Of a DNA stretch of 64,000 nt, positions 18,535-41,529 are shown in pieces. A model generated the notes under the pieces. That model made no database searches and was not told where the DNA came from. It was given only the letters and a program-made list of their open reading frames with translations. Made by a program: the position numbers and the translations under genes. The stretch comes from Bacteroidales bacterium (lineage in GTDB: Bacteria; Bacteroidota; Bacteroidia; Bacteroidales; VadinHA17): the NCBI GenBank assembly GCA_034004115.1, contig JAVEXG010000005.1, forward strand, positions 2,657-66,656, given 5' to 3'. Every line of letters begins with the position of its first letter. Positions within the stretch are counted from its first letter, which is position 1.

Positions 18535-18626
18535 ATCAGTAATTTTTGTTAAAGTATTTCTTTGATCCGTATAACACAAAATAAGAAAGGAAAGTGCAAC
18601 ATTTTTAGCTAAAATTCAAATAATTA

Positions 18627-20105: not shown

Positions 20106-20323
20106 GTCGTTTCCAGTTTTATTTTATTCAATTACCTGATTAAAGATCCTTACCAGCCGTCCGGAGGTATAATGGTTTGCCTTCAGGAGCGGATTTCCGG
20201 CCCGGTAAACTGTATTTCCGGTATTTGCAACTCCTGCAATGGCTGTCAGATATACCTTTATATTATATATATTATATGGCCGCAGGCAATCAGCAATTGC
20301 GGATATTATAATCAGATACTTCA

Positions 20324-21364
20324 TTATTTCCGTGTCGCCGGCTGCTTCTTTCTTAATGTCGATTCCCTGATTATGAGTTCATGCTTTACAATGATTGTAC
20401 TAAGGCTGGATGCACCTTTGTCATTCAGGATGTTGATCAGTGAAGTTGCGGCAAGCCTGCCTATCTCCCTTGCAGGATAATCAACTGTTGTAAGGCATGG
20501 CTTGATAACCCTGCTTACAGGTTCATTGTTGAAACCGGCCACAGCAATATCGCCCGGAACCTTTATACCTGATTTCTGAAGCTCACATATCACTGCAACA
20601 GCCGATGCATCGTTGGATGTAAAGATCCCGTCGGGCCGGTCCTTCATGCGCAGGATGGCCTGCACGGCATCAAGACCTGCCTGACTTCCAAGCTCGCTTA
20701 CAATCAGCAGTTCATCATCGAATGCTATCCCGTTGTCGGCCAATGCCCGTTTATATCCCTCAAACCTGTCTGAATAGACGTTGCGAAGCATGTTTCCTCC
20801 GATATGCATGATCCTCCGGCAGCCCTGATCAATAAGGTGGGAAGTCACCTCGTACCCGGCCCTGAAATTGTCGATCACAATACCCATGCATCCCGGGCAG
20901 TTTGAAACCCGGTCAAAGAACACAACCGGGATATTTTTCCTGAGTATCTGATTGAAGTGGTCAATGTTTTCGGTGTCGTAGGCCAGGGAAACCAGCAATC
21001 CGTCGACCCTGCTGTGAAAAAGAGTCGATACGCAGGCTGTTTCCTTTTTTCCTGACTCCTGCGACTGACTTATGATCAGCCCGTAACCAAACTGGTTCGT
21101 TATCTCCTCCATCCCTGCTATCACAGTGGCCATGAAAAAACTGTTCAGTTTGGGAACCACCACCCCTATGGTTTCGGTGCTCCTTTTTCTCAGACTGCTG
21201 GCAAACTTGTTCTGCTGGTAGCCCATCTCTTTTGCCATGGCTCTTATCCGCTTCTTCGTATCCGCATGGATATGCGGATGGTCCTTTAAACCTCTGCTGA
21301 CCGTCGAGGGTGAAATATTCAGGGCTTTTGCCACATCGTAAATGGTGACATCACGGGTGCTCAT
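20324..21364 (-). CDS. LacI-family transcriptional regulator
   Basis: N-terminal HTH 'TIYDVAKALNISPSTVSRGL' followed by a periplasmic-binding-protein-like effector domain. Confidence 0.9.
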   Translation of the reverse strand: MSTRDVTIYDVAKALNISPSTVSRGLKDHPHIHADTKKRIRAMAKEMGYQQNKFASSLRKRSTETIGVVVPKLNSFFMATVIAGMEEITNQFGYGLIISQSQESGKKETACVSTLFHSRVDGLLVSLAYDTENIDHFNQILRKNIPVVFFDRVSNCPGCMGIVIDNFRAGYEVTSHLIDQGCRRIMHIGGNMLRNVYSDRFEGYKRALADNGIAFDDELLIVSELGSQAGLDAVQAILRMKDRPDGIFTSNDASAVAVICELQKSGIKVPGDIAVAGFNNEPVSRVIKPCLTTVDYPAREIGRLAATSLINILNDKGASSLSTIIVKHELIIRESTLRKKQPATRK

Positions 21365-21432
21365 CTGCAGGAAAATGAATTAACAAATTTAATATAAAAT
21401 GACAGACAGTGAAAAAAATTAAGAAAAAAACC

Positions 21433-21446
21433 CGCAATCGGTTGCA
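21433..21446. promoter_or_regulatory. LacI-type palindromic operator, site 1 (cGCAATCGGTTGCa)
   Basis: Near-palindrome with a central CG. It lies in the lacI / DUF6807 divergent spacer, 19 nt upstream of the -7-like TATTTTCG (21465-21472). Confidence 0.6.
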
Positions 21447-21523
21447 TATTTTTAAAAACATGTCTATTTTCGGAATTCAAAGAACCTGATCTGCCATTCT
21501 TTTTTTTAATATACTTACTAACC

Positions 21524-22795
21524 ATGAATCATGAAATCCGTTTCCCAATCAAGGCCTCACTAACCGTTGCGGCTTTGCTAAGCCTTTTAGCAGTAACCTG
21601 TCAGGCTCAAAAGATAGCCTCGCTCGAAGTAAATCTTGCCAGTCCCGCCTTTGGGATGAAAATCCCCGTGAGCATCAATCTCGACGAGGTTACCTACCTG
21701 TCCGATACACTCCTGGCATTATATGAGATCAGGGATGGTACCTCAACAAAAGTTCCGTTTCAGACCGAAGCAGGCAATCCAAGAAAACTGACATGGCTGG
21801 TCTCATCGGGAACCGGAGCCAATGAAAAGCACACATATGAGCTGGTGAGCGAAAAATCGATGTTTCCCTATACTATGAAAGCGTCGGTCAAGGATGGCGC
21901 CCTGCTTATTCATTCAGGCGACCAGAAACTGCTTCAGTACTTCTTCACTACAGTATATCCTCCGGCCGGAGTTGATACTGCATACAAAAGAAGCGGATTC
22001 ATACATCCCCTGTGGTCACCTCATGGGCAATCGCTTACGCGGATTCAGCCGCCTGACCATTATCACCATTACGGCATCTGGAATCCATGGACCATGGTTG
22101 AATTTGAGGGTGACACCCTGGATTTCTGGAATATAAATTCAAAGCAGGCCACTGTCCGCTTTGCCAACTTCGTATCGGTTGAAGAGGGACCTGTTTTCTC
22201 TGAATTCGGAGCTCTTCATGAGCATATAGTTTTGAAGAAGGCAGGGAAAGACAAGGTTGCGATGAACGAACTGCAGAATGTAAGAGTCTATGAACCTGAC
22301 AAAAGCGGTGACTGTTTCATAGTCGACTTCAACATAAACATGAACTGCGCAGGTGAAAGTCCATTCAGGATCCTGGAATACCGCTATGCAGGTCTTGGCT
22401 GGAGAACAACTGAGAAATGGAACAAATTGAACAGCATGGTCCTCACATCCGAAGGGAAGGACAGAAAAAGCGCCGACGGCAGCAAGGCAAGGTGGTGCAT
22501 CGTCCAGGGTGAGATCGATACTGACTATGCAGGTGTTGTAATGATGTCGTTCCCGACAAACTACAACTTCCCCGAACCTCTCAGGATATGGCCCGAGAAT
22601 CAGTATAACAGAGGCGACATGTTTGCAAACTTCTGCCCCACCAAAGATATGAACTGGGATCTGATGCCGGGGAAAAACTACAACCTCAGATACAGGTTCC
22701 TCGTCTATAACGGCCGTTTCGAAAAAGAAAAGGCGGAAAGTGCCTGGAACTACTTTGCCCGGCCGCCGGAGGTTATAGTCCGTAAGGTGAAATAA
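21524..22795 (+). CDS. secreted PmoA-family / DUF6807-like protein
   Basis: Signal peptide. The 'GFIHPLWSPHG...HYHHYGIWNPW' region resembles the family often found next to Gfo/Idh/MocA genes. This assignment is from memory only. Confidence 0.5.
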   Translation: MNHEIRFPIKASLTVAALLSLLAVTCQAQKIASLEVNLASPAFGMKIPVSINLDEVTYLSDTLLALYEIRDGTSTKVPFQTEAGNPRKLTWLVSSGTGANEKHTYELVSEKSMFPYTMKASVKDGALLIHSGDQKLLQYFFTTVYPPAGVDTAYKRSGFIHPLWSPHGQSLTRIQPPDHYHHYGIWNPWTMVEFEGDTLDFWNINSKQATVRFANFVSVEEGPVFSEFGALHEHIVLKKAGKDKVAMNELQNVRVYEPDKSGDCFIVDFNINMNCAGESPFRILEYRYAGLGWRTTEKWNKLNSMVLTSEGKDRKSADGSKARWCIVQGEIDTDYAGVVMMSFPTNYNFPEPLRIWPENQYNRGDMFANFCPTKDMNWDLMPGKNYNLRYRFLVYNGRFEKEKAESAWNYFARPPEVIVRKVK

Positions 22796-22847
22796 GCGAT
22801 TTAATTTGTATTTATTATAAATACAATCTATTACCTTCAAAATTATT

Positions 22848-22861
22848 CGCAATCGATTGCA
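22848..22861. promoter_or_regulatory. LacI-type palindromic operator, site 2 (cGCAATCGATTGCa)
   Basis: The 12-bp core is a perfect palindrome. It lies 17 nt upstream of the consensus -7 box TAAATTTG (22879-22886) in front of susC. Confidence 0.65.
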
Positions 22862-22952
22862 CATTAGAAATGTTTTCATAAATTTGGTATCAACTAACCT
22901 TAATTGCCTGATTTTTATAACTCAATTTTATTCAACCCTTTAATTCAATTAC

Positions 22953-25900
22953 ATGAAAAAACTTCTGCTGCTGATTATGTTTGCCGGATTCACCTTGAAT
23001 CTGGCGGCACAAAAAGTTGTCACTGGCAAGGTGACAGATGAAGAACAAAATCCTCTTCCCGGGGTTTCTGTGCAGGTAAAAGGGACATCCATCGGAGTTC
23101 TTACCGATAAGGATGGGCAGTTCCGGCTACAGATCCCCGTCGATGTGAGGATACTCTCATTCTCGTTCATCGGGATGAAAACCCAGGAACTCGAGATCGG
23201 AACACAATCCAGCTTCAGCGTTGTGATGCAGGTCGATGTCGGAATGCTTGAGGAGGTAATCGTAATCGGTTATGGAACAATAAAGAAAAAGGACCTTACC
23301 GGCGCCGTCTCCAGGATCGATGCGAATGAACTCGCTACTGAAGCCACATCTAACGTAACAACAATGCTGAGGGGAGCAATACCCGGACTGGCCGTGAACC
23401 TGAGTACGAGCGCCAAGGGGCTGAGCAGCTCAAGCGACATGCTCATACGCGGAGAGACATCGCTGAGAGCCGACGATGATGACCAGAAAAATGCCAACGC
23501 GCCTCTGGTTGTCGTCGACGGTATGCTTTACTATGGCGACCTGGCCGACATCAACCCGGTCGACATTGAGACTTTTGACATACTGAAGGATGCATCCTCG
23601 GCTGCCATTTACGGGGCCAGGGCTACAAACGGGGTCATCCTGATCACTACAAAAAGAGGGCTTAAGGGCAAACCCGTCGTCAATATAAGCACCAGCACCG
23701 GGATGGCATTCATTTCACATGCGCATTTCGAAATGATGAACGGAGAACAGCACATTGCAAGAAGGATTGCCGGTTTTGAACAGAATGAACGCAGGCAGAC
23801 TTCTATCGGCGCAGGTTATTACAACAGCTATGAAAATCTTCCTTCAGGTGTAACGCTTGAACAGTGGAAGGCCTACGACGGTTCAACCGCTGCAACCGAT
23901 CTCGACGAAGTATGGCTCTCAAGAATAGGCTTTGCTCCAATCGAAATCAACAACTACAAGGCCGGCAGGCTTACCGATTTCAAGGATTACACATGGCAGA
24001 ACGGACTTACCCAGGACTATAACCTGAGCCTGTCAGGTAGTTCCGATGCCGTTTCATATTACTGGTCACTCGGCTACACCGATAACGAAGGTATAAGGTA
24101 TAACGAGGAATTCAGTACCATCCGCTCAAGGATCAATCTTGATGCAGATGTAACTAATTTCCTGAAAGTAGGTCTGAATGCCCAGATGGCCTTCCGGGAT
24201 GAAAGTCCTATTTCGCCCGGAGCAAGTCTCTTCAACACCCCCTATTCATCAATGTTCCAGGATGACGGAGTCACCCTTGAACTGACACCATCAGGCTATA
24301 TCAACGCCCCTAACTTCTGGCTCGAAATGAGGTTCCGGGACCGCTATCGGAAGTACAATACCCTGAACAGCAAGATATTTGCCACTTTGACTTTACCTCT
24401 TGGACTATCATTCACCTCCGAATTCATACCAAGGTTCAACTGGAACAGGGACTATAACAGCTATTCGTCAGGCCACTTTGAGTGGGCATTGCAGGGCGGA
24501 AGAGCTTCCAGGGCCAACACTACGGTATTCGAATGGCAGATAAACAACATGCTGAAATGGAACAAGACATTCGGCGACCATGCCTTCGATGCAACCTTCG
24601 TGCAGAACGCCGAAAGATACAACTACTGGTATGAATATATGGAAAGGCAGAACTTCCAGCCTTCCGATGTTCTTGGCTACCACAGGATGCAGGCTGCAAC
24701 CGAAGACGTCTCCCTCACAAGCAATGATGAGACAAGCACAGGTGATGCACTTCTGGCCAGATTGAATTATACATTCAAATCCAGGTACAACCTCACCGGA
24801 TCCTTCCGCCGGGATGGTTATTCTGCTTTTGGCCAGGCTAACCCAAGAGCCAGCTTCTGGTCAGTTGCAGGAGGCTGGACCATCAGCGAGGAAGATTTCT
24901 TCAACGTCGACTGGATCGATCAGCTGAAGCTGAGATTGTCGTACGGTGTCAACGGGAACCGCGGTGTCGGAATTTACGATGCCCTCTCCAACCTTAACTC
25001 CGGTAAGTTCCTTCTCATTGAAGGCGGAGTTGAACAGTACGTCTCACAGCTTTACACAAGCCGAATGGCGAATGCAAACCTTAAGTGGGAACGCACCTCA
25101 GCTTATAACGGAGGACTCGATTTCGCGGTGATGAAAGGCAGACTGAGAGGTACTATTGAAGCATATTTCTCGATAACCAAAGACCTTATCATCCCGCGCC
25201 AGCTTCCAAACGTGACAGGCTACTCGAGCGTGTTCTCGAACATGGGTCAGGTTAACAACATGGGATTCGAATTCAACCTGAACTCGGTCAATATCTCAAC
25301 CAATGATTTCACCTGGACATCCGACTTCTCGGTATCGCACAACAGAAACAAGATTGTTCATCTGTTCGGCGATTTTGTAACTGATGAGGAAACAGGAGAA
25401 CTGAAGGAAGTGGATGATATAACAAATGAATGGTTTATCGGACATGCAATCGATGAAGTCTGGGATTATAAAACACAGGGAATCTGGCAGGCTTCCGAAT
25501 CTGCAGAAGCTACCGCTTACTCCCGCTCACCCGGTGATTATAAACTTCTCGATTTTGATGATGACGGATATTACACTAATGACGACAAGCAATTCCTGGG
25601 CTTCAGGAGACCAAGGGTAAGACTAAGCCTGAGAAATGATGTCCAGTACAAAAACTGGCAGCTGTCGGTAAAGATGTATTCATATCTCGGTAATCTGAAG
25701 GCAAACAACTTCCTGAGAAACAACGAAGCATTCTACGACAGGGGTACCTATTACGATGTTCCCTACTGGACTGCTGACAATCCCGGTAACAAATGGGCAA
25801 GAGTTGAAAGCTACGAAACCAACTTCAACGTGTGGGAGAAAAATTCATTTGTAAGGCTTGACAATGTTTCACTTTCCTACAATATCCCTAACAGCCTTCT

Positions 25901-26045
25901 TTCAAAGATCAGGATAGTAAACTGCAGACTGTCGCTGGTTGCCGACAACCCTCTTGTTTATGCTCCTCAATGGTCATGGATGGATCCGGAAAATGATTCC
26001 TACACGCCTTCCTATATCTCATTCAAAGTAAATATCACCCTTTAA
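22953..26045 (+). CDS. susC: SusC/RagA-family TonB-dependent outer-membrane transporter
   Basis: 1030 aa. A signal peptide and carboxypeptidase-regulatory-like N-domain (VTGKVTDEEQNPLPGVSV) are followed by a plug, a beta-barrel and a C-terminal aromatic end. Confidence 0.9.
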   Translation: MKKLLLLIMFAGFTLNLAAQKVVTGKVTDEEQNPLPGVSVQVKGTSIGVLTDKDGQFRLQIPVDVRILSFSFIGMKTQELEIGTQSSFSVVMQVDVGMLEEVIVIGYGTIKKKDLTGAVSRIDANELATEATSNVTTMLRGAIPGLAVNLSTSAKGLSSSSDMLIRGETSLRADDDDQKNANAPLVVVDGMLYYGDLADINPVDIETFDILKDASSAAIYGARATNGVILITTKRGLKGKPVVNISTSTGMAFISHAHFEMMNGEQHIARRIAGFEQNERRQTSIGAGYYNSYENLPSGVTLEQWKAYDGSTAATDLDEVWLSRIGFAPIEINNYKAGRLTDFKDYTWQNGLTQDYNLSLSGSSDAVSYYWSLGYTDNEGIRYNEEFSTIRSRINLDADVTNFLKVGLNAQMAFRDESPISPGASLFNTPYSSMFQDDGVTLELTPSGYINAPNFWLEMRFRDRYRKYNTLNSKIFATLTLPLGLSFTSEFIPRFNWNRDYNSYSSGHFEWALQGGRASRANTTVFEWQINNMLKWNKTFGDHAFDATFVQNAERYNYWYEYMERQNFQPSDVLGYHRMQAATEDVSLTSNDETSTGDALLARLNYTFKSRYNLTGSFRRDGYSAFGQANPRASFWSVAGGWTISEEDFFNVDWIDQLKLRLSYGVNGNRGVGIYDALSNLNSGKFLLIEGGVEQYVSQLYTSRMANANLKWERTSAYNGGLDFAVMKGRLRGTIEAYFSITKDLIIPRQLPNVTGYSSVFSNMGQVNNMGFEFNLNSVNISTNDFTWTSDFSVSHNRNKIVHLFGDFVTDEETGELKEVDDITNEWFIGHAIDEVWDYKTQGIWQASESAEATAYSRSPGDYKLLDFDDDGYYTNDDKQFLGFRRPRVRLSLRNDVQYKNWQLSVKMYSYLGNLKANNFLRNNEAFYDRGTYYDVPYWTADNPGNKWARVESYETNFNVWEKNSFVRLDNVSLSYNIPNSLLSKIRIVNCRLSLVADNPLVYAPQWSWMDPENDSYTPSYISFKVNITL

Positions 26046-26056
26046 AATTACCGGAT

Positions 26057-27934: not shown

Positions 27935-28045
27935 GCAGAAATACATTAAGAAACACCTGCTTCTTTTAAGGAATTTTTGATCCTAATCCTTATCTTTATG
28001 AACAGAACAATTATGTTTCTTAAATCCTGAAACCGATAATGGAAA

Positions 28046-28080
28046 TTCCCCCGGCAGGCTTTTCAATGCCGCCGGGGGAA
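28046..28080 (+). terminator. strong hairpin after susD (terminator-like, no U-run)
   Basis: Perfect 10-bp inverted repeat TTCCCCCGGC / GCCGGGGGAA with a 15-nt loop. Confidence 0.4.
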
Positions 28081-28116
28081 AACCATATGACAACCCTTAA
28101 CCAAAATAAACAATAA

Positions 28117-29490
28117 ATGAAAAGAAGAATTTTCATCTCCAGAGCTGCTCAGGCTGCTGCAGGGTCGCTGATTCTGCCGACAATTGTTCCTTCTTCCGTC
28201 ATAGGCCGCAATCCGCCGAGCGATAAGATCAACATCGGATGGATAGGCTGCGGCAGGCAGGGAAGAGGAGATATCATGGGTACCATGAGATTCGACACTG
28301 CAATGGTGGTAGCTGCTGCCGATGTTGATTCAAAAAGGGTGGCACTCGGAAAGCAAATGGTCGAAGGCTTTTATTCAAGAAAGACCGGAAACAGCAACTA
28401 TGTCAATGTAAAAACCTACGGCGACTACAAGGAGTTGCTTCTCGACAAATCGATCGATGCGGTCATGATAACAACACCCGACCACTGGCACTCCCAACCC
28501 GCCATTGAAGCAGCCCTTGCCGGAAAGGACATCTATCTTGAAAAGCCTACTTCCCTTACAATAACAGAAGGAAGGCTTCTAAGTGATGTGGTGAAAAAGA
28601 CAAAGGTCATTCTTCAGGTTGGAACCCAACAGCGCTCAAGTCCCCAGTGGAGAATCGCTGCAGAACTTGTACGGAACGGCAGAATCGGCAAGCTCCATAC
28701 AGTCAAAATAGGATTACCCGGAGATCCGGCCGGTCCGGAAGCCCCTGAAATGCCGGTTCCGACAAACCTGAATTACGATATGTGGCTTGGATCCACACCG
28801 GAAGTCTACTACACCGAGATCCGCGTCCATCCGCAAAGTGGGTTTGACCGCCCCGGATGGCTGAGGTGCGAACAGTTTGGCGCCGGCATGATAACAGGCT
28901 GGGGTCAGCACCACTTCGACTCGGCAGCATGGGGAATGGATACAGAACTGACCGGTCCGGTATCGATCGAAGCAGTTGCTCAATTCCCGAAAGCAGGATT
29001 GTGGGATGTTCACGGTGATTTCATGTCAATAGCAGAATATGCCAACGGGATAACTCAGCTTACAAGCGGAAACTACCCCAACGGAGTCAGATATGAGGGA
29101 ACCGACGGATGGATCTTTGTTACACGCGGTAACTACAGGGCCACTGACAGTGACCCGATTGTCCAGGCTCAGAATACCAAAGCCCTCGACGCCAGTGATC
29201 CCAAAATACTGAGTTCAGTGATCGGTCCCAACGAGATTCATCTCTATGAAAGCAGTGATCAGGCAGGCAACTGGCTCGACTGCATCAAATCGCGCAAGGA
29301 ACCCATTTCTCCGGTTGAGATCGGACACAGGGCTTGCACGGTCTGCCTTGTTACCCATATAGCAATGAAACTGGGGAAAAAACTTAAATGGAACCCTGAA
29401 ACTGAGAAATTCGTGGGCGACGATGAGGCCAACAGCTTGCTGTCAAGGCCCCAGAGAGCACCCTATGGCACAAATTACATAAAATTATAG
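28117..29490 (+). CDS. TAT-exported Gfo/Idh/MocA-family oxidoreductase
   Basis: Twin-arginine signal 'MKRRIFISRAAQAAAGS' and Rossmann motif 'INIGWIGCGRQGRG'. Confidence 0.85.
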   Translation: MKRRIFISRAAQAAAGSLILPTIVPSSVIGRNPPSDKINIGWIGCGRQGRGDIMGTMRFDTAMVVAAADVDSKRVALGKQMVEGFYSRKTGNSNYVNVKTYGDYKELLLDKSIDAVMITTPDHWHSQPAIEAALAGKDIYLEKPTSLTITEGRLLSDVVKKTKVILQVGTQQRSSPQWRIAAELVRNGRIGKLHTVKIGLPGDPAGPEAPEMPVPTNLNYDMWLGSTPEVYYTEIRVHPQSGFDRPGWLRCEQFGAGMITGWGQHHFDSAAWGMDTELTGPVSIEAVAQFPKAGLWDVHGDFMSIAEYANGITQLTSGNYPNGVRYEGTDGWIFVTRGNYRATDSDPIVQAQNTKALDASDPKILSSVIGPNEIHLYESSDQAGNWLDCIKSRKEPISPVEIGHRACTVCLVTHIAMKLGKKLKWNPETEKFVGDDEANSLLSRPQRAPYGTNYIKL

Positions 29491-29603
29491 GTTTGTATTT
29501 ACCGGACCCGCATGCATCTGTAGCCTCATTTTTTTGAGATTGTGTAGTGCATGCGGGCTTCCTGTCTTTACAAAGCAGAAAACAGATCACTAAACAAAAA
29601 GAA

Positions 29604-30512
29604 ATGAACAGACTGATAAGAGGCATCCTCATATTACTTACGGGCAGCTTACTGTTTTTACCGGCATCGGCCGCCAAACTGACAGCTGAGCTTACCGGAT
29701 CCAAAATCAATGTGAGCATCGACGGAAAATTCTTTACCAGCTACATCTTTTCAGAGGATGAGAAATACCCTTTCTTCTACCCTGTGAACGGACCGGTAAC
29801 AGGTGGTTCGGTAACATCCATGAGAAACGCTGTTTACCCTCATCATACATCCTTGTTCTTTGGATGCGACATGGTAAACGGAGGAAATTACTGGCAGGAA
29901 GGGCTTGAACGCGGAAGGATAATATCTGTAAATGCCCGCATTGAGAAAGAAGGAGGCGATACAGTTGTGATAACCGACGAATGCATCTGGAGCCGCCCGG
30001 GAGCTGTCTCCCCGGTAAAGGATACCCGGAGGTACATCATAACCGCACCAGCAGCTGACAGGACCCTCATCGATGTTGAAATTACAATGCTGACACTGAT
30101 GGATGTCCATATCAGGAAAACAAACCATTCGCTGTTCAGCGCAAGGCTTGCCGCTGACATCTCCGTCACGAACGGCGGCACAATGATAAATGCCGAGGGT
30201 GCAAAAAGCGAAAAGGATACATTCGGAAAGAGATCCCCGTGGATCGACTTCTGCGGGAAAAGGGGAAATTCAACTGAAGGCCTGGCAATAATGCAGCACC
30301 CGTCAAATCCCTGGTACCCGGCTCCCTGGTTTACTCGCGACTACGGGTTCATTTCACCGACACCCATGTACTGGCCTGAAAACGGTGAGGAGACTTTCCT
30401 TAAGGATGGAACCAGACTTGTCCTGAAATACAGGGTACTTGTCCATGCAGGCGATCATTTACAGGCTGATATCGCCGGAGAGTTTAAAAAATACATATCA
30501 GGAACGTTATAA
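29604..30512 (+). CDS. secreted PmoA-family / DUF6807-like protein (second copy)
   Basis: Signal peptide 'MNRLIRGILILLTGSLLFLPASA'. It is a shorter paralog-like version of 21524-22795. The start was moved from GTG 29547 to ATG 29604. Confidence 0.5.
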   Translation: MNRLIRGILILLTGSLLFLPASAAKLTAELTGSKINVSIDGKFFTSYIFSEDEKYPFFYPVNGPVTGGSVTSMRNAVYPHHTSLFFGCDMVNGGNYWQEGLERGRIISVNARIEKEGGDTVVITDECIWSRPGAVSPVKDTRRYIITAPAADRTLIDVEITMLTLMDVHIRKTNHSLFSARLAADISVTNGGTMINAEGAKSEKDTFGKRSPWIDFCGKRGNSTEGLAIMQHPSNPWYPAPWFTRDYGFISPTPMYWPENGEETFLKDGTRLVLKYRVLVHAGDHLQADIAGEFKKYISGTL

Positions 30513-30581
30513 CATTGTTATAACATTGTCATAGGAAGGCGTGAGGCGTGCGACATGAGGTACGCGGTATGCTGTTTGGTT

Positions 30582-31271
30582 TCATTCATGCGTTTTTCTG
30601 TAAAGACATTCTGTCCTCCGGCACGAACTGCAGGGATACGGATCGAAGTTTACATCTGCTCCCATGCCGATCAATCCGCTGACCGACTTTTCAGGGTTCA
30701 TAAGCGCCGAAGCGTTGAGACTGACTCCGCAGGAATTTCCGGGCATGAGTTCAAACAACCCGTGCTGTTCCGATACGTCCCATCCGCAATACCCCGGACT
30801 ATACCGGTTTGTAACCCTTAAACCTGAGATTTCAGCAGCTTTCCTCACTTCCTGAAGAACCAGCAGGGATGCACGTTCCGCAATCTCACTTCCTATCATG
30901 TCGTAAATATAGGAGGCCAGGGGATCTCCGTCTTCCATGGCCTTCCTGCAGAGTTTTTCAGGTTCCGGACCTGCCGTACAGATAAAGACGGCAAATGATT
31001 CTGCTTTCCTCACCTGTGAAAAGACAACATCTTTAAGACTAAAACCGGCCCCATGGATTATTACTGATTTCGCGGCATTCTTCCATTTCTCAACAGGATA
31101 TATCCTGTATTCGGCTTTTGCTGAACATACAGGGGCAACCTTGCCGATCAGCTCACGGATCAGACCGGAGAAATCATCAGCCTGATATCCTTCACCGTAA
31201 CCGAGTAGTCTGCCTATCCGTTCGCCATCGACGCCAAGTTCTGAAAAATCATATTGAAATGTGCCCATCAT
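30582..31271 (-). CDS. methionine-synthase activation (AdoMet-binding, Met_synt_B12-like) domain protein, stand-alone
   Basis: 229 aa. 'RYSPGYCGWDVSEQHGLFELM' and 'MNPEKSVSGLIG' resemble the MetH reactivation domain. The gene overlaps the stop of metVF. Confidence 0.6.
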   Translation of the reverse strand: MMGTFQYDFSELGVDGERIGRLLGYGEGYQADDFSGLIRELIGKVAPVCSAKAEYRIYPVEKWKNAAKSVIIHGAGFSLKDVVFSQVRKAESFAVFICTAGPEPEKLCRKAMEDGDPLASYIYDMIGSEIAERASLLVLQEVRKAAEISGLRVTNRYSPGYCGWDVSEQHGLFELMPGNSCGVSLNASALMNPEKSVSGLIGMGADVNFDPYPCSSCRRTECLYRKTHE

Positions 31272-32710
31272 TCCTGATCCAGTCCGGCTTCACGGACAAT
31301 CTTTCCAACAACATCTTCCCATCCCAGCGACATAAGGTGAATCCCGCTTATACCCTTTTTTTTCCTTAATGCCGTAATAATTTCAAGTGTTATTGCTATT
31401 CCCTCCTCACGGGCTCCGTCTCCTGCTTTTTCCATGCGACTGAGTATCTTTTCAGGAAGGTACACTCCGGGAACCTTCTCATGGAGGTAAAGCGCAGCCT
31501 TATAGCTTTTAAGCGGTACCAGCCCCACAAGAATACTTACCTTTCCGAGGACATTCCTCCTTTCAAGCTGTTCGAGCCAGGGGTCAAGCCTTTCCGGTTC
31601 GAAAATTATGTTTGTCTGAAAGAACTGGGCACCGGCGTTAACCTTTTTCTGGTCCCTTATTGCCTGAAGTTCAGGGTCAAGTGCAAAGGGTGTAGTTGCA
31701 GCACCAAGAAAATATGTGGGCGGATACTTCATCTTTCTACCGTCGAGGTAGATGCCCTCATCCCGCATTCTGCGGAGAATCCACAGCATCTGCACCGAAT
31801 CGAGATCGTTGATGTTCATATCGCTTGCCGGAGGAGGTCCCACTATGGGACTGTCTCCTGTGACACACAGTATGTTTCTTATCCCGAACTGTCCCGCTCC
31901 GATTGCATCCGCCTGCAGTGATATTCGTGTTGAATCGCGGGCGGCGATCTGAAATACAGGTTCCGCATTCAGATCGACTGCAACTTTGCAGCAGGCCAGT
32001 GCTGACATCTTCGGGATAGCTGATGAAGCATCAGTGAAATTTATTGCCTTTACATAAGGTCTTACCAGCTCTATGTCATTTTTAAGCTTTTCGGAAGAGG
32101 CACTCAGCGGCGGGGTCACTTCCGTGGCAACCACGAAGCGGCCTTCCCTGAGACTCTTCTCCATCTCCGAGGCCGGCTCCCTGTAAGCGGCCGGGTGATA
32201 CTCTGAATCGCCGTTCCACCATACTGGCTGCCTTACAGTTCTGAAAACCGAATCCCAAACCTGTTTTTTAAGCTCCTTGTCGCGCGAAAACAGCGATCCG
32301 ATGAATCTTCCGGTGCCTGTTCTTCCGATCTGACTGAATACATCAGCCCAGGTTTCGGTGCCTGTCCTGCTCCAGTCGAGTGGAGGCAGGACCTCCAGGA
32401 GAGTATCCTCACGTCCGATCTTCCTGGCCCGATAGTATATCGCGTGCCAGACGCATCTTCTTGTCGGGTCGACATAGCATTGTCCGTCGGGAGTGACACC
32501 ACCACAGGGTCCGTTTCTGAGACCTTTCGGGCACTCCATGCAGCATATGAAGGCTGTCTCCTGAAGAAGGCAATTGCCGCACATCCGGCAGCCCCATACC
32601 GGGCCCTTGACAATTATCTCGATCTTTTCACGGAAACGCTTTCCGAAAGTCTCCCTCTTGAACGGATAAAAGGGGGGTTGCCAACGACGGGCAGGCTTGA
32701 TAGCAGACAT
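31268..32710 (-). CDS. metF: fused MetV-like zinc-ribbon domain + methylenetetrahydrofolate reductase (MetF)
   Basis: The N-terminal 'CRMCGNCLLQETAFICCMECPKGLRNGPCGG' is an MTHFR_C/MetV-type Cys cluster. The C-terminal roughly 290 aa form an MTHFR TIM barrel. Confidence 0.75.
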   Translation of the reverse strand: MSAIKPARRWQPPFYPFKRETFGKRFREKIEIIVKGPVWGCRMCGNCLLQETAFICCMECPKGLRNGPCGGVTPDGQCYVDPTRRCVWHAIYYRARKIGREDTLLEVLPPLDWSRTGTETWADVFSQIGRTGTGRFIGSLFSRDKELKKQVWDSVFRTVRQPVWWNGDSEYHPAAYREPASEMEKSLREGRFVVATEVTPPLSASSEKLKNDIELVRPYVKAINFTDASSAIPKMSALACCKVAVDLNAEPVFQIAARDSTRISLQADAIGAGQFGIRNILCVTGDSPIVGPPPASDMNINDLDSVQMLWILRRMRDEGIYLDGRKMKYPPTYFLGAATTPFALDPELQAIRDQKKVNAGAQFFQTNIIFEPERLDPWLEQLERRNVLGKVSILVGLVPLKSYKAALYLHEKVPGVYLPEKILSRMEKAGDGAREEGIAITLEIITALRKKKGISGIHLMSLGWEDVVGKIVREAGLDQE

Positions 32711-32742
32711 ATATTAAGTTATTATAACTGAAGTTTAGGGCT

Positions 32743-33585
32743 TCAGGAATTGCGGCTTTGAAAATACTCAACAAATCTGATGGCAAAGTCATCCCTTCCC
32801 AGAACAAGATCGGCAGCCCGGGCGGCAGATGTTGATTTTTCAGGATTTGCTATTGGGCAGGTCACTCCGCAATAAACGGCAAGTGTCATGAAAGCCGCGT
32901 TAAGCGACTCCCTGTCGGGCAGCCCGAATGATATGTTGCTTGCTCCCATGGTTATGTTCATACCCAGCTTCCGGTGCAATTGTCGGATAGTCTCAAGTGT
33001 GACCACGCAGGCCTGAGGTTCGGCGCTTACGGCCATCGCCAGTGGATCGGCAATTACATCCTCAGCCCTGATTCCGGCCGCAACGGCTCTGTCGATAATC
33101 TTTTCTATTATCAACACCCGCTTTTCCGGATCGTTTGTGATCCCTTCATCATCCATGCACAAGCCTATGATCGCAGCACCATACTCCTTTGCAACGGGAA
33201 TGAGAGTCCTGAGGGACTCCTCCTTGCCGTTAACCGAATTGATAAGACATTTGCCTGCAGAAACCTTAAGCGCGGCTTCGATGGCTGACGGATTCGGGGA
33301 ATCGAGACAAAGGGGAATGTCAAAATTATCCTGTATGGCTGTCACAACTTCCGGAAGAAGCTTCGCATCATCAACCCCCGGATACCCGACATTAACATCG
33401 AGTATATCGGCGCCGGCCTTTATCTGGCTGGCTGCCAGTTCAAGCACATAGGAAAAATCTCCTTCCTGAAGGGAGGAGACCAGTTTCCGGCGGCGGGTCG
33501 GATTAATCGATTCGCCAATTATGATTACAGGACCATCGGTATCGATGATCACCTCCCTGGTCCTGCCTGAAAGAACTGTCTTCAT
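32743..33585 (-). CDS. pterin-binding methyltransferase (methyl-THF:corrinoid methyltransferase, AcsE/MetH-pterin-domain-like)
   Basis: 'IIGESINPT..', 'ADILDVNVG', 'LCLDS', 'LINSVNG' and 'GASNISFGLP' are DHPS-like pterin-binding motifs. The start was moved to ATG 33585, 2 nt after the upstream stop. Confidence 0.8.
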   Translation of the reverse strand: MKTVLSGRTREVIIDTDGPVIIIGESINPTRRRKLVSSLQEGDFSYVLELAASQIKAGADILDVNVGYPGVDDAKLLPEVVTAIQDNFDIPLCLDSPNPSAIEAALKVSAGKCLINSVNGKEESLRTLIPVAKEYGAAIIGLCMDDEGITNDPEKRVLIIEKIIDRAVAAGIRAEDVIADPLAMAVSAEPQACVVTLETIRQLHRKLGMNITMGASNISFGLPDRESLNAAFMTLAVYCGVTCPIANPEKSTSAARAADLVLGRDDFAIRFVEYFQSRNS

Positions 33586-33587
33586 GA

Positions 33588-34256
33588 TTAAACTGCAAAC
33601 TGTTTCAGATAATTTACTGCACCCTGCGGATCGGGGGAATAGAAATCGGCGCCAATCTTTTCGCAATACTCCCGTGTAACCGGAGCCCCGCCAATAAGTA
33701 TCCTGATTTCAGGATGCTTCTCCTTCAATGCAGCAACGGTCTTTTTCATATTCTCCATTGTAGTCGTGAGAAGGGCCGAAAGCCCTACAAAAGCGCCCGG
33801 ATTTTCCTCAATTGCCCTGAGGAACTTATCGGAGCTGACATCCACTCCAAGGTCGATAATCTCCCATCCGCCTCCCTCGATCATCATTGCAACCAGGTTC
33901 TTTCCTATGTCGTGCAAATCGCCGGAGACGGTGCCAATAATGAATTTCCCCTTCCGTTTGGTCTCGCCCGACTGAAAGAAAGGCTTCAGATGCTTCATGG
34001 AGCTGTTCATAGCCTTTGCAGCCATCAGCATCTGGGGAACATAGATCTCCTTACGGCTGAATCGTTCACCAACAGCAGCCATCGCAGGTATAAGCGCCTC
34101 ATCGAGTATCCTGGCAGGACCCAATCCTTCTTCTATAGCCAGTTTCGTAATCTCATCCGCTCCATCCTGCCCCTTCATTCCGGGAGGGTAAGGCGAAGCC
34201 TTGTCCGTTTTGCCTGACTCAACACACAGTGCGATCCGGGCCAGTATATCATCCAT
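33588..34256 (-). CDS. corrinoid (B12-binding) protein with cap domain
   Basis: Carries the DxHxxG motif 'SGDLHDIGKNLV', then 'GLSALLTTTM' (SxL) and 'ILIGGAPVT' (GG). Confidence 0.85.
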   Translation of the reverse strand: MDDILARIALCVESGKTDKASPYPPGMKGQDGADEITKLAIEEGLGPARILDEALIPAMAAVGERFSRKEIYVPQMLMAAKAMNSSMKHLKPFFQSGETKRKGKFIIGTVSGDLHDIGKNLVAMMIEGGGWEIIDLGVDVSSDKFLRAIEENPGAFVGLSALLTTTMENMKKTVAALKEKHPEIRILIGGAPVTREYCEKIGADFYSPDPQGAVNYLKQFAV

Positions 34257-34351
34257 AACTAAAATGATTGGTGCAATTTCGTTCTGAAAACCTTTAAGTC
34301 AATAAAAGCACGAAAATAATAAAATCAAAAGTAATTAATAATATTTGTTCA

Positions 34352-34365
34352 TGCAACCGATTGCA
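34352..34365. promoter_or_regulatory. LacI-type palindromic operator, site 3 (tGCAACCGATTGCa)
   Basis: Over 14 nt (ATGCAACCGATTGC) it is identical to the reverse complement of site 1. It lies 18 nt upstream of the minus-strand -7 box TACTTTTG (34333->34326) in front of the corrinoid operon. Confidence 0.6.
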
Positions 34366-34479: not shown

Positions 34480-34529
34480 CAACACAAATTTCTTATCTTG
34501 TACTTTCTAAAAAATCAACTGACTTGAAA
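34480..34529 (+). repeat. 50-bp direct repeat, copy 1
   Basis: CAACACAAATTTCTTATCTTGTACTTTCTAAAAAATCAACTGACTTGAAA. It is 48/50 identical to 34971-35020. Confidence 0.9.
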
Positions 34530-34624
34530 ATTGCATCTCTTTTCCTGTTTTATGCGGTTTTTATGAACCCAAAAGAGTAACTGGCATACATCTAATCTAT
34601 TATGTAAAGTTTTAATGAAAAATT

Positions 34625-41503: not shown

Positions 41504-41529
41504 AGGTTTGATTTAAATATCTGATTATT

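What the first reader, a model, noticed from the sequence alone, without database searches (positions are those of the whole stretch)
20324..34365. One LacI-type palindrome at three promoters links a SusC/D locus to a corrinoid methyl-transfer/MTHFR operon
The core GCAAyCGrTTGC occurs at 21433-21446, 22848-22861 and 34352-34365. Site 3 matches the reverse complement of site 1 over 14 nt (ATGCAACCGATTGC). A given 12-mer is expected about 0.01 times in 64 kb on both strands. All three sites sit 17-19 nt upstream of a TAnnTTTG-like -7 box: TATTTTCG at 21465, TAAATTTG at 22879, and TACTTTTG on the minus strand at 34333. That is classic repressor geometry. The central CG and TG..CA flanks fit LacI-family operators, and the only LacI gene in the window (20324-21364) is adjacent to site 1. 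If this is real, a sugar-type repressor co-controls four units: its own gene, a PmoA-like gene, susC/susD/gfo, and the convergent operon of B12 protein, pterin methyltransferase, MetVF and activation domain. I do not know of a glycan-uptake locus wired to a cobalamin methyl-transfer module. One speculative reading is anaerobic, O2-independent handling of a methylated sugar or glycoside, for example 4-O-methyl-glucuronate from xylan, since xylA/xylB sit next to lacI. A degenerate relative, GCAATCAGCAATTGC at 20286-20300 upstream of xylB, may or may not be a fourth site.
Basis: partly seen in the sequence, partly recalled or inferred. Interest (0 to 1): 0.75.

Follow-up and report, generated by a model that had tools for sequence, protein, structure and literature searches.

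The report
Xylan regulon includes B12 methyl-transfer operon
A sugar-type (LacI) repressor site is conserved in about 20 anaerobic Bacteroidales species in front of a glycan-uptake locus and a vitamin-B12 methyl-transfer/folate operon, and the neighbouring genes suggest, without proving, that these bacteria strip the methyl group from 4-O-methyl-glucuronic acid of wood xylan without oxygen.

Summary
The core GCAAYCGRTTGC occurs exactly three times in the window (0.01 expected), each 17-18 nt upstream of a TAnnTTTG-like -7 box.

Comparative data show it is a real operator:
- In 980 kb of orthologous loci, all 53 exact cores are intergenic.
- They lie upstream of susC, between lacI and DUF6807, or about 95 nt upstream of the corrinoid-protein gene (18 of 41 species).
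- In a 14-species alignment, only the palindrome and the -7 box are invariant.

The corrinoid operon (B12 protein, methyl-THF methyltransferase, MetV-MetF reductase, MetH-type reactivation domain) sits inside glucuronoxylan loci. Neighbours are GH67, GH115, CE15 glucuronoyl esterase, GH10, GH3 and xylAB, and in some species they form one gene array with it.

The main gap is that the window has no substrate:corrinoid methyltransferase. A URO-D/MtaA-type candidate is fused to the same module in one relative. In another lineage it sits behind the same operator.

The main rival is a split methionine synthase. The proposed fourth site is not conserved. "PmoA-like" is a misnomer for a periplasmic, mutarotase-fold protein.

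No publication of such a link was found in the library searched.

The parts
17209..18579 (-). xylA, xylose isomerase. It is the last gene of the probable lacI-xylB-xylA unit. The likely ATG start is at 18534.
   Evidence: NCBIfam xylose isomerase, 674 bits. The order lacI-(GH67)-xylB-xylA on one strand is conserved in L001-L004, L006, L040, L140 and L169.
18627..20105 (-). xylB, xylulokinase
   Evidence: TIGR01312 XylB, 298 bits, with FGGY_N and FGGY_C domains
20324..21364 (-). LacI-family regulator, the presumed repressor that binds the palindrome
   Evidence: Pfam LacI HTH plus Peripla_BP_1/3. It is the only LacI homologue in the window. The recognition helix S-P-S-T-V-S-R and the hinge N-K-F-A-S-S-L-R are conserved in orthologues.
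21433..21446 (.). Operator site 1 (CGCAATCGGTTGCA) in the divergent lacI / DUF6807 intergenic region
   Evidence: The equivalent site is present between LacI and DUFa (or GH115) in every orthologous locus that covers this region.
21465..21472 (+). -7-like box TATTTTCG of the DUF6807 promoter, 18 nt from site 1
   Evidence: Read. It is an imperfect match to the Bacteroidota TAnnTTTG consensus (own knowledge).
21524..22795 (+). DUF6807 paralogue a. It is periplasmic (signal peptide) and was formerly mis-named PmoA.
   Evidence: Pfam PF14100, 218 bits. The N-terminal signal peptide is visible.
22848..22861 (.). Operator site 2 (CGCAATCGATTGCA) upstream of susC
   Evidence: The site is conserved 88-240 nt upstream of SusC in 14 loci, and 21 metagenome hits lie before SusC.
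22879..22886 (+). -7 box TAAATTTG of the susC promoter, 17 nt from site 2
   Evidence: Read
22953..27934 (+). susC (22953-26045) and susD (26057-27934), the outer-membrane glycan import pair
   Evidence: Pfam CarbopepD_reg_2 and Plug for SusC; SusD_RagB for SusD
28117..29490 (+). Gfo/Idh/MocA oxidoreductase with a twin-arginine signal (periplasmic), related to glycoside/glucuronide 3-dehydrogenases
   Evidence: Pfam. NCBIfam BT_2158 family at 135 bits, below the cut-off. Best PDB hits are 8TDF and 8TDH, and 8TDI is also matched. The RR motif is visible.
29604..30512 (+). DUF6807 paralogue b, periplasmic, with a predicted galactose-mutarotase-like beta-sandwich fold
   Evidence: Pfam. AF2 model with pLDDT 67.5 and pTM 0.74. 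Foldseek hits to GalM 1NSM/1L7K at about E 1e-4.
30582..31271 (-). MetH-type reactivation (AdoMet-binding) domain protein, last gene of the corrinoid operon
   Evidence: Pfam Met_synt_B12. Matches Thermotoga 1J6R with the R-x-S-P-G-Y motif kept.
31268..32710 (-). MetV-MetF fusion, a methylene-THF reductase of the acetogen type
   Evidence: Pfam DUF5981 (MetV) plus MTHFR. There are 55 related loci.
32743..33585 (-). Methyl-THF:corrinoid methyltransferase (MT-II, pterin-binding)
   Evidence: NCBIfam PRK07535, 266 bits, above its 259-bit cut-off. The best PDB hits are MeTr 2YCI and MtgA 4O0Q, ahead of MetH.
33588..34256 (-). Corrinoid (B12-binding) protein, first gene of the operon
   Evidence: Pfam B12-binding and B12-binding_2. 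DxHxxG motif at residue 113. The best PDB hits are 1Y80, MttC 7XCN and 4JGI, ahead of MetH.
34326..34333 (-). -7 box TACTTTTG of the corrinoid operon promoter, 18 nt from site 3
   Evidence: Read. The box is invariant (TA..TT.G) in the 14-species alignment.
34352..34365 (.). Operator site 3 (TGCAACCGATTGCA), 96 nt upstream of the corrinoid-protein start codon
   Evidence: The exact core lies 57-109 nt upstream of CP in 18 of 41 species-level loci. It forms an invariant island in alignment A2. In 12 metagenome contigs the same operator/-7 geometry precedes CP.
35108..36634 (+). Periplasmic PD40/TolB-like beta-propeller protein, divergent from the corrinoid operon and a possible fifth target
   Evidence: Pfam PD40. 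The gene is syntenic in 27 loci, where its start lies 64-390 nt from the operator. In the window a 491-bp insertion separates them.

Best explanation
The three palindromes are operators of a LacI-family repressor, most simply the one encoded at 20324-21364. Each operator overlaps the -33 region of a Bacteroidota-type promoter, so the bound repressor would block RNA polymerase. An inducer derived from glucuronoxylan or a uronate would release it.

The regulon in this window has three promoter regions:
1. lacI-xylB-xylA, divergent with DUF6807a.
2. susC-susD-gfo-DUF6807b.
3. The corrinoid operon CP-MT-II-MetVF-reactivation domain.

This is one arm of a glucuronoxylan utilisation system of anaerobic Bacteroidales. 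SusCD imports MeGlcA-decorated xylo-oligosaccharides. The periplasmic Gfo 3-dehydrogenase-like enzyme and the mutarotase-fold DUF6807 proteins (or GH67/GH115 in relatives) process the uronic side chain. XylAB consume the xylose.

The cytoplasmic corrinoid module most likely receives the O-methyl group of a methylated sugar, with 4-O-methyl-glucuronate as the best candidate. It would pass the methyl group from methyl-Co(III) to THF through MT-II, and MetVF would oxidise methyl-THF to methylene-THF for C1 metabolism. The MetH-type domain would reactivate oxidised cobalamin using AdoMet. The substrate:corrinoid methyltransferase (MT-I) must be encoded elsewhere. A URO-D/MtaA-family protein is the best candidate.

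What is shown and what is inferred:
- Shown: the motif, its geometry, its conservation and the gene neighbourhoods.
- Inferred: repression, the inducer, the methyl donor and the direction of methyl flow.

My sub-confidences: real LacI operator and regulon about 0.9; the corrinoid operon is functionally part of glucuronoxylan use about 0.75; sugar O-demethylation about 0.5; MeGlcA as the specific donor about 0.4.
For: Operator:
- Three exact cores against 0.01 expected.
- All 53 exact cores in 980 kb of loci from about 60 species are intergenic, although about 90% of that DNA is coding. Of 27 one-mismatch hits, 24 lie inside genes.
- The cores sit at fixed positions before CP, SusC and LacI/DUFa.
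- In the 14-species alignment, the invariant columns are only GCAA.CG.TTGCA and the -7 box.
- Loci that lack LacI/SusCD/DUFa (L015-L017) keep only a decayed half-site at the same position.
- The HTH recognition helix and the hinge Leu are conserved.
- An unbiased metagenome scan for operator plus -7 box found the following downstream genes: SusC 21, kduI 19, LacI 13, CP 12, GH10 4, CE15 3, and GH67, GH3 and xylB once each.

Xylan link:
- GH67 follows lacI in L002-L004, L040 and L048.
- L039 has CP-PtMT-MetVF-Act-GH3-CE15 with 4-11 nt gaps behind the operator.
- GH115, CE15, GH10 and an MFS_2 transporter are neighbours.
- L023 has FecR-SusC-SusD-GH10-CP..., so the same gene assembly sits under a different regulator.
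- L037 has PtMT-MetVF next to an SDR, UxuA and GH30.

Catabolic character:
- CP and MT-II score higher against methyltransferase-system proteins (MtgC/MtbC, MeTr, MtgA, 1Y80, 4JGI) than against MetH.
- No SAM or B12 riboswitch is present.
- L041 has CP-PtMT-MetVF-formate-THF ligase.

MT-I candidate:
- L038 has URO-D-CP-PtMT-MetVF-GH53-MFS-GH2.
- L142/L180 carry the same operator about 140 nt upstream of URO-D-MFS-GH2.
- The URO-D protein matches the MtaA/CmuA family, but only at 41 bits, far below that model's 235-bit cut-off.
Against: - No MT-I (URO-D, MttB or MtaB type) lies in the window or in any of about 40 xylan-type loci.
- The only URO-D contexts found are galactan-type, with a BT4151-like exo-beta-1,4-galactosidase and GH53, not xylan.
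- The operator precedes URO-D in one lineage only. It is absent in L182-L185.
- In a Lentimicrobiaceae relative (L037) the CP and reactivation genes follow a homocysteine S-methyltransferase gene. That is a split MetH.
- The reactivation domain here is MetH-type, not the RACE/RamA type of known O-demethylases.
- 23 of 41 loci lack an exact core within 200 nt upstream of CP.
- Paralogous LacI proteins (40-45% identical) share the recognition helix and the operator. The adjacent LacI is therefore not the only possible binder.
- Corrinoid demethylation of an aliphatic sugar methyl ether has no biochemical precedent that I know of.
- Nothing here was measured experimentally.
Confidence: 0.5

Rival explanations
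1. The minus-strand operon is an anabolic, split cobalamin-dependent methionine synthase plus its MTHFR. MetF makes methyl-THF. The pterin-binding protein loads the corrinoid protein. A separately encoded homocysteine S-methyltransferase makes methionine. The activation domain repairs Co(II). Its position next to xylan genes and its LacI site would then reflect carbon-source-dependent tuning of C1 and methionine supply, not demethylation of a sugar.
For: L037 has Hcy-S-methyltransferase-CP-Act and PtMT-MetVF, with 63-72% identity to the window proteins. Act is a MetH-type AdoMet domain. No MT-I lies in the window. The operon keeps a stable position next to housekeeping-like genes (PD40, acyltransferase, DAG kinase, HAD) in 18-27 loci. 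Split MetH systems are known (own knowledge: Thermotoga TM0268/TM0269; three-part MetH in Phaeobacter).
Against: No homocysteine-binding gene lies in the window or in the other loci. No SAM or B12 riboswitch is present. A sugar-type repressor site over the promoter is conserved in 18 or more species. In L039 the operon runs on into GH3-CE15 with gaps of 4-11 nt. Other relatives pair the module with URO-D, GH53, MFS and GH2, or with formate-THF ligase. CP and MT-II are closer to catabolic methyltransferase components than to MetH. Even L037 is flanked by uronate and xylan genes.
Confidence: 0.25
2. The regulon and the demethylase reading are right, but the methyl donor is not MeGlcA. One alternative is aromatic methoxy groups of ferulate or lignin fragments released from lignin-carbohydrate complexes, for example by CE15. 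Another is a different methylated neutral sugar, such as an O-methyl-galactose or O-methyl-xylose, taken up by a XylE-like porter.
For: Known corrinoid O-demethylases act on aryl methyl ethers (own knowledge: Acetobacterium, Moorella and Desulfitobacterium systems). CE15 is co-operonic in L039, L049 and L055. The only MT-I candidate found travels with a XylE-like sugar porter and a galactan-type GH2/GH53.
Against: The three enzyme families specific for (Me)GlcA side chains (GH67, GH115, CE15) and the glucuronate catabolic genes dominate the neighbourhood. No feruloyl esterase or aromatic-acid transporter was seen. The LacI subfamily is uronate-associated: its paralogues sit before kduI and GH88.
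Confidence: 0.15
3. The palindrome in front of the corrinoid operon is bound by a different LacI paralogue that shares the motif, for example a KdgR-like hexuronate regulator encoded elsewhere. The SusCD locus and the corrinoid operon would then not be strictly co-regulated by the adjacent LacI.
For: LacI paralogues only 40-45% identical carry the same recognition helix and sit next to the same operator before kduI and GH88 in many metagenome contigs.
Against: Where the LacI/SusCD/DUFa block is missing from the locus, the CP site is decayed (L015-L017). Eleven loci show sites at CP and at SusC/DUFa together. Either way the input would still be a uronate-type signal.
Confidence: 0.1

Closest known systems
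LacI/GalR-family repressors with palindromic operators that have a central CG (PurR, CcpA/cre, GalR; Bacteroidota LacI regulons reconstructed by comparative genomics)
   Same: It has an HTH_LacI domain plus a periplasmic-binding-protein sugar domain. The operator is a 14-bp palindrome TGCAAyCGrTTGCA with a central CG, and the hinge helix carries a Leu. An autoregulatory site lies next to its own gene. The operator overlaps the core promoter.
   Different: The target set includes a corrinoid methyl-transfer/MTHFR operon, which I found in no published LacI regulon. The promoters are of the Bacteroidota -33/-7 type.
Corrinoid-dependent O-demethylase and methyltransferase systems of anaerobes (MT-I / corrinoid protein / MT-II / activating enzyme; for example Mtv of Moorella, Odm of Acetobacterium, MtgABC of Desulfitobacterium)
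   Same: It has a stand-alone corrinoid protein with DxHxxG and a pterin-binding MT-II whose best hits are MeTr and MtgA. It is linked to THF and MTHFR. Relatives have a URO-D/MtaA-family gene directly upstream of the corrinoid protein.
   Different: MT-I is missing from this locus. The activator is a MetH-type AdoMet domain rather than a RACE/RamA ATPase. The host is a fermentative Bacteroidales with PULs, not an acetogen or methanogen. The presumed donor is an aliphatic sugar methyl ether rather than an aryl ether or a quaternary amine.
Split cobalamin-dependent methionine synthase (for example Thermotoga MetH plus the separate activation protein 1J6R)
   Same: The pterin-binding, B12-binding and activation modules are separate proteins. 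Act aligns to 1J6R and keeps the AdoMet motif.
   Different: There is no homocysteine-binding module. The operon is under a sugar repressor and lies inside xylan loci. CP and MT-II score better against catabolic systems than against MetH.
LigM-MetF-LigH C1 pathway of Sphingobium sp. SYK-6 (own knowledge)
   Same: A catabolic MTHFR oxidises methyl-THF that comes from O-demethylation of a plant-derived methoxy compound. In L041 a formate-THF ligase follows MetVF.
   Different: LigM is THF-dependent without a corrinoid and works in an aerobe on aromatic substrates. Here the system is corrinoid-dependent, anaerobic and embedded in a PUL.
Oxidative (3-keto) glycoside cleavage pathway of Bacteroides/Alistipes (BT2156-2160; PDB 8TDF, 8TDH, 8TDI)
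   Same: The periplasmic TAT-exported Gfo/Idh/MocA enzyme has these dehydrogenases as its best PDB and NCBIfam relatives.
   Different: It scores far below the family cut-off (135 against 750 bits). The partner proteins are DUF6807 (mutarotase-like fold) rather than the xylose-isomerase-like lyase and DUF1080 hydratase (own knowledge of that pathway).

Membership tests
LacI/GalR transcription factor with its operator | N-terminal LacI-type HTH plus a C-terminal periplasmic-binding-protein-like effector domain | tested here: met
   PF00356 at 46.8 bits; PF13377 and PF00532
LacI/GalR transcription factor with its operator | A palindromic operator with a central CG, found near its own gene and upstream of its target genes, and conserved across species | tested here: met
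   53 of 53 exact cores are intergenic, and the core is an invariant island in 14 species
LacI/GalR transcription factor with its operator | Demonstrated DNA binding and effector-dependent release | not testable with these tools
   Needs EMSA or DAP-seq and ligand screening
Polysaccharide utilisation locus (PUL) | Adjacent susC-like TonB-dependent transporter and susD-like genes | tested here: met
   22953-27934
Polysaccharide utilisation locus (PUL) | Co-localised glycan-degrading enzymes | tested here: inconclusive
   The regulated units in the window contain no GH, only Gfo and DUF6807. Orthologous loci carry GH67, GH115, GH3, GH10 and CE15.
Three-component corrinoid O-demethylase / methyltransferase system | Corrinoid protein with a B12-binding domain and DxHxxG | tested here: met
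   (DLHDIG at residue 113)
Three-component corrinoid O-demethylase / methyltransferase system | MT-II: methyl-corrinoid:THF methyltransferase (pterin-binding TIM barrel) | tested here: met
   PRK07535 at 266 bits, above its 259-bit cut-off; PDB hits 2YCI and 4O0Q
Three-component corrinoid O-demethylase / methyltransferase system | MT-I: substrate:corrinoid methyltransferase (URO-D/MtaA, MttB or MtaB type) in the system | tested here: not met
   None in the window. A URO-D gene is present only in relatives L038 and L142/L180.
Three-component corrinoid O-demethylase / methyltransferase system | Reductive activator of the RACE/RamA type | tested here: not met
   A MetH-type activation domain is present instead. 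RACo occurs only in the Chloroflexi loci.
Cobalamin-dependent methionine synthase (MetH), split form | Homocysteine-binding S-methyltransferase module (PF02574) | tested here: not met
   Absent from the window and from 58 of 59 loci; present only in L037
Cobalamin-dependent methionine synthase (MetH), split form | Pterin-binding, B12-binding and AdoMet activation modules | tested here: met
MetVF-type methylene-THF reductase | MetV (DUF5981, Cys-rich) together with the MetF TIM barrel | tested here: met
   PF12225 at 86 bits plus PF02219 at 102 bits in one 480-aa protein
Particulate methane monooxygenase PmoA (the old name of PF14100) | Integral membrane subunit of pMMO | tested here: not met
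   The proteins are soluble with signal peptides. The predicted fold is a beta-sandwich of the galactose-mutarotase type, from a model of only moderate confidence.

The most novel reading that the evidence does not exclude
Anaerobic Bacteroidales from peat, sediments and digesters carry, inside their glucuronoxylan regulon, a cobalamin-dependent sugar O-demethylase. A URO-D-type methyltransferase encoded elsewhere would move the 4-O-methyl group of methyl-glucuronate (or of another methylated cell-wall sugar) onto the corrinoid protein. MT-II would pass it to THF, and MetVF would oxidise it. If true, this would be the first corrinoid demethylation of an aliphatic sugar methyl ether and the first B12 methyl-transfer module integrated in a PUL. 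It would divert xylan methyl groups from methanol, and so from methylotrophic methanogenesis, into the folate pool.
Probability: 0.4. Interest if true: 0.85.

Novelty: new variant of a known kind. Interest (0 to 1): 0.72.

Why it matters
Hardwood and grass xylans carry one 4-O-methyl-glucuronate per roughly 6-10 xyloses. To my knowledge, how anaerobes remove that methyl ether is not established. Without removal, the standard glucuronate pathway should stall at the KDG aldolase step (own reasoning).

A PUL-linked corrinoid/THF module would give that question a concrete, testable gene set: operator, regulator, corrinoid protein, MT-II, MetVF and a URO-D candidate. It would extend B12-dependent methyl transfer from acetogens and methanogens to fermentative Bacteroidales. 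It would add a B12 requirement to fibre degradation. It would also change where xylan-derived methyl groups go in peat, sediment and digester carbon budgets: into the folate pool and formate rather than methanol.

Even if the biochemical reading fails, the regulon stands as a clean, well-footprinted LacI operator in Bacteroidota. It can be used to annotate hundreds of MAGs.

Tried and rejected
1. DUF6807 ('PmoA') as the missing MT-I or as a methane-oxygenase-like enzyme. Rejected: both copies, the Gfo enzyme and the PD40 protein have export signals, and the model has a galactose-mutarotase-like fold.
2. The fourth site at 20286-20300. It has no central CG and is not conserved in L001 or L006. 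In other loci lacI is followed directly by GH67 or xylB. It is probably a chance match.
3. A riboswitch (SAM or B12) upstream of the corrinoid operon. None was found at the Rfam gathering threshold or at E<=1.
4. MT-I among the other window genes. Pfam on 50 of the 56 ORFs of at least 150 aa found none. tblastn with URO-D and Hcy-methyltransferase queries found none in the window or in the xylan-type loci.
5. The extra gene 'c43' after Act in L044, L046 and L048 as MT-I. It is a lipoprotein with no Pfam hit.
6. Literature. Nothing on DUF6807 function. Nothing on corrinoid or cobalamin demethylation of methyl-glucuronate, or on a PUL-corrinoid link. A search for 'split MetH' returned only noise, and the paper on the oxidative glycan pathway is not held in the library.
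7. Showing that a URO-D gene and the xylan-type corrinoid locus lie in the same MAG. The contig names in the two collections could not be matched.
8. The operator upstream of URO-D in other lineages. It is absent in L182-L185.

Full report
**1. The observation**

The degenerate 12-mer GCAAYCGRTTGC matches exactly three times in the 64-kb window, at 21434, 22849 and 34353. Dinucleotide-preserving shuffles give a mean of 0.01, and none of 100 reaches three matches. Relaxing the perfect palindrome TGCAATCGATTGCA to three mismatches adds only two hits, which is the chance level.

Site 3 is the reverse complement of site 1 over 14 nt. Each site lies 17-18 nt from a Bacteroidota-type -7 box: TATTTTCG at 21465, TAAATTTG at 22879, and TACTTTTG on the minus strand ending at 34326.

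Pfam and NCBIfam confirm the gene content:
- xylA, xylB and LacI on the minus strand.
- DUF6807 (old name PmoA), SusC, SusD, a Gfo/Idh/MocA oxidoreductase and a second DUF6807 on the plus strand.
- A convergent minus-strand operon: a B12-binding corrinoid protein (CP), a pterin-binding methyl-THF:corrinoid methyltransferase (PtMT, i.e. MT-II), a MetV-MetF fusion, and a MetH-type activation domain (Act).

The LacI gene has no paralogue in the window.

**2. Is it a real operator?**

LacI orthologues of about 70% identity are very numerous in Bacteroidales metagenome bins. Four LacI-centred contigs keep the order LacI / DUF6807 / SusC / SusD / Gfo / DUF6807, and the palindrome sits at the same two places.

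A search of GTDB species representatives with MetVF returned 55 loci. I mapped genes and motif on all of them. In 980 kb, of which about 90% is coding, the exact core GCAANCGNTTGC occurs 53 times, and all 53 are intergenic. Of the 27 one-mismatch hits, 24 are inside genes, which is what background predicts.

The exact cores fall into a few classes:
- 57-109 nt upstream of CP.
- 88-240 nt upstream of SusC.
- In the LacI/DUF6807 or LacI/GH115 divergent region.

Eighteen of the 41 species-level loci that include the CP upstream region have the exact core within 200 nt of CP, down to 64% MetVF identity. L007 (short upstream region) and the window add two more. In L055 and L056 the site precedes a SusC-SusD pair that lies upstream of CP on the same strand. 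A hairpin follows SusD there, so co-transcription is not certain.

An alignment of the CP upstream regions from 14 species has only these invariant columns: GCAA.CG.TTGCA, and TA..TT.G 17-19 nt downstream. Everything else has diverged. Loci without LacI/SusCD/DUF6807a nearby (L015-L017) retain only a half-site (GGTTGCA) at the homologous position, as expected for an operator that has lost its regulator.

The HTH recognition helix (S-P/A-S-T-V-S-R) and the hinge helix with its Leu are conserved. This fits a LacI-family operator with a central CG (own knowledge of PurR and LacI structures). The right half of the operator (GGTTGCA) occupies the place of the -33 element, so binding should occlude the promoter. 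That last point is inference.

**3. An independent, unbiased check**

I scanned the JGI metagenome collection for the operator followed by N17-19 and TAnnTTTG. The first gene downstream was:

| Downstream gene | Matches |
|---|---|
| SusC | 21 |
| KduI | 19 |
| LacI | 13 |
| CP | 12 |
| GH10 | 4 |
| CE15 | 3 |
| GH88 | 3 |
| DUF6807a | 2 |
| GH67, GH3, xylB, MFS_2 | 1 each |

The corrinoid operon is therefore a frequent target of this operator. The motif belongs to a LacI subfamily devoted to uronic-acid metabolism. The kduI-linked regulators are paralogues, 40-45% identical, with the same recognition helix. This supports a uronate-type inducer. It also means a paralogue encoded elsewhere could share the sites.

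**4. What the surroundings say**

In relatives the corrinoid operon is embedded in glucuronoxylan machinery:
- GH67 alpha-glucuronidase follows lacI in L002-L004, L040 and L048. In L004 and L040 an SDR and an enolase-superfamily dehydratase lie between GH67 and xylB-xylA.
- GH115, CE15 glucuronoyl esterase, GH3, GH10 and an MFS_2 transporter flank the operon.
- In L039 the array CP-PtMT-MetVF-Act-GH3-CE15 has gaps of only 4-11 nt and carries the operator in front of CP.
- In L023 the order is FecR anti-sigma, SusC, SusD, GH10, CP, PtMT, MetVF, Act. The same assembly therefore sits under a different type of PUL regulator.
- In a different family (Lentimicrobiaceae, L037), PtMT-MetVF is followed by an esterase, an SDR, UxuA and GH30.
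- The Chloroflexi hits place MetVF in Wood-Ljungdahl clusters, so they are a different context.

GH67, GH115 and CE15 all act on the (4-O-methyl-)glucuronyl side chain of xylan (own knowledge of the CAZy families). That methyl ether is the only methyl group in the polymer.

**5. Localisation and the DUF6807 question**

Gfo has a twin-arginine signal. Both DUF6807 proteins and the divergent PD40 protein have signal peptides. The four corrinoid-operon proteins have none.

Gfo's closest NCBIfam and PDB relatives are the glycoside/glucuronide 3-dehydrogenases of the oxidative glycan-cleavage pathway: BT_2158 family, 8TDF, 8TDH and 8TDI. The scores are far below the family cut-off.

DUF6807 has no sequence relative of known structure. 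An AlphaFold model of moderate quality (pLDDT 67.5, pTM 0.74) matches galactose mutarotases and the mutarotase-like domains of glycoside hydrolases and phosphorylases (E about 1e-4, TM about 0.4). DUF6807 is thus a periplasmic sugar-acting protein. It is neither PmoA nor the missing methyltransferase.

**6. The corrinoid module and its gap**

- CP has the DxHxxG motif. It scores best against cognate corrinoid proteins of methyltransferase systems (MtgC and MtbC models; PDB 1Y80, 7XCN, 4JGI), ahead of MetH.
- PtMT passes the cut-off of the methyl-THF:corrinoid/iron-sulfur-protein methyltransferase model. It is closest to MeTr and MtgA, ahead of MetH.
- Act aligns to the stand-alone Thermotoga activation protein 1J6R and keeps R-x-S-P-G-Y.
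- No riboswitch precedes the operon.

What is missing is a substrate:corrinoid methyltransferase (MT-I). None is in the window or in the roughly 40 xylan-type loci.

Two relatives are informative:
- L038 has URO-D-family protein - CP - PtMT - MetVF - GH53 - sugar porter - GH2 in one array. This is a complete MT-I/CP/MT-II set joined to glycan genes.
- The metagenome scan recovered L142 (= L180/L181). There the same operator lies 19 nt from a TGATTTTG box and about 140 nt upstream of a URO-D - XylE-like porter - GH2 operon, divergent from a SusC gene.

The URO-D protein matches the MtaA/CmuA methyltransferase family weakly. It is widespread and highly conserved in Bacteroidales, always with the sugar porter. 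However, its GH2 partner is a BT4151-like exo-beta-1,4-galactosidase. The operator is also absent before URO-D in other lineages. These findings show that the module can work with a sugar-linked MT-I encoded elsewhere, and that such a gene can belong to the same regulon. They do not show that this happens in the organism of the window.

**7. Best explanation and rivals**

I consider it nearly certain (about 0.9) that the palindromes are LacI-family operators and that the three promoter regions form one regulon. I consider it likely (about 0.75) that the corrinoid operon is a functional part of glucuronoxylan use.

The most probable role (about 0.5) is capture of a sugar O-methyl group on cobalamin, transfer to THF, and oxidation by MetVF. 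This is analogous to anaerobic O-demethylases and to the catabolic MetF of the Sphingobium LigM pathway (own knowledge). 4-O-methyl-glucuronate is the leading donor (about 0.4).

The main rival (0.25) is a split methionine synthase with its MTHFR. L037 supports it, because a homocysteine methyltransferase gene precedes CP-Act there, and the activation domain is MetH-type. Several observations count against it: the sugar repressor, the co-operonic CAZymes, the absence of a riboswitch, and the better match of CP and MT-II to catabolic systems. The two readings are not exclusive, since a shared CP/MT-II module could serve both.

Lesser rivals are a different methyl donor (aryl methoxy groups, or a neutral methyl-sugar) and binding by a paralogous LacI.

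**8. Novelty**

The regulator and operator type are ordinary. Full-text searches found nothing on the following:
- DUF6807 function.
- Corrinoid-dependent demethylation of methyl-glucuronate.
- A corrinoid/MTHFR module in a PUL.

I therefore rate this a new variant of known kinds (LacI regulon, PUL, corrinoid methyltransferase system), with a substantial chance of being a new pathway. All functional statements rest on sequence and context. No binding, expression or enzymology was measured.

Noticed in passing
window 34480-35032: A 62-nt direct repeat (34480-34541 and 34971-35032, 89% identical, 491 nt apart) brackets a G+C-rich, strongly structured insert. The stretch 34620-34900 folds at -131 kcal/mol (z = -5.4) and contains a 39-nt imperfect inverted repeat. 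It lies between operator site 3 and the PD40 gene. Orthologous loci lack it. It looks like a MITE/REP-like insertion or a small RNA, and it has no Rfam match.
   Followed up: partly
L063, L069, L077, L082, L087, L092, L093, L095, L102, L104, L126, L131, L133, L134, L137, L148, L162, L168, L177: The same operator and -7 geometry precedes kduI (a 280-aa KduI-family protein) next to LacI paralogues that are 40-45% identical to the window LacI and share its recognition helix. GH88-like genes are targets in three more contigs. The motif therefore marks a uronate-catabolism LacI subfamily across Bacteroidota.
   Followed up: partly
L180-L191 and L038 (for example L182 10001-18292): A widespread and highly conserved Bacteroidales operon: URO-D/MtaA-family 'methyltransferase' - XylE-like sugar porter - BT4151-like GH2 exo-beta-1,4-galactosidase. 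The first two genes overlap or abut in several loci (L180-L185, L191). It is usually divergent from a small 188-aa gene and a SusC-like gene. It suggests demethylation of an imported methylated monosaccharide from galactan. I found no literature on it.
   Followed up: partly
window 9849-14350 (-): A molybdopterin oxidoreductase with N-terminal 2Fe-2S/4Fe-4S domains, plus NuoF-like and NuoE-like subunits, looks like an NAD(P)-linked formate dehydrogenase or hydrogenase-type complex. A MobA-like gene lies at 14390-15070. It could oxidise formate produced from methyl-group oxidation, but no operator is nearby.
   Followed up: no
window 39176-42717 (-): A second oxidative-sugar cluster: a xylose-isomerase-like TIM barrel, a second Gfo/Idh/MocA enzyme and DUF2961. 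It is syntenic with the PD40/acyltransferase/DAG-kinase/HAD block in 13-19 loci, often together with GH116. It has no LacI site.
   Followed up: no
L067, L075, L152: In three independent metagenome contigs the operator plus -7 box lies 63-64 nt upstream of a pheS-like gene (phenylalanyl-tRNA synthetase alpha subunit, judged from the sequence). This is either a recurrent chance match in one lineage or an unexpected target.
   Followed up: no
L023 (8187-8363), L055 (8292-8443), L022: Where the corrinoid operon follows SusD or GH10 on the same strand, the short spacer holds a G+C-rich hairpin (for example gagaactgagg...cctcagttctc) that looks like a terminator or processing site. Read-through from the PUL promoter is therefore uncertain in those species.
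   Followed up: no
L034 9322-11437: In this species the pterin-binding methyltransferase gene is missing between CP and MetVF, and the operator is also absent. The module may be decaying.
   Followed up: no
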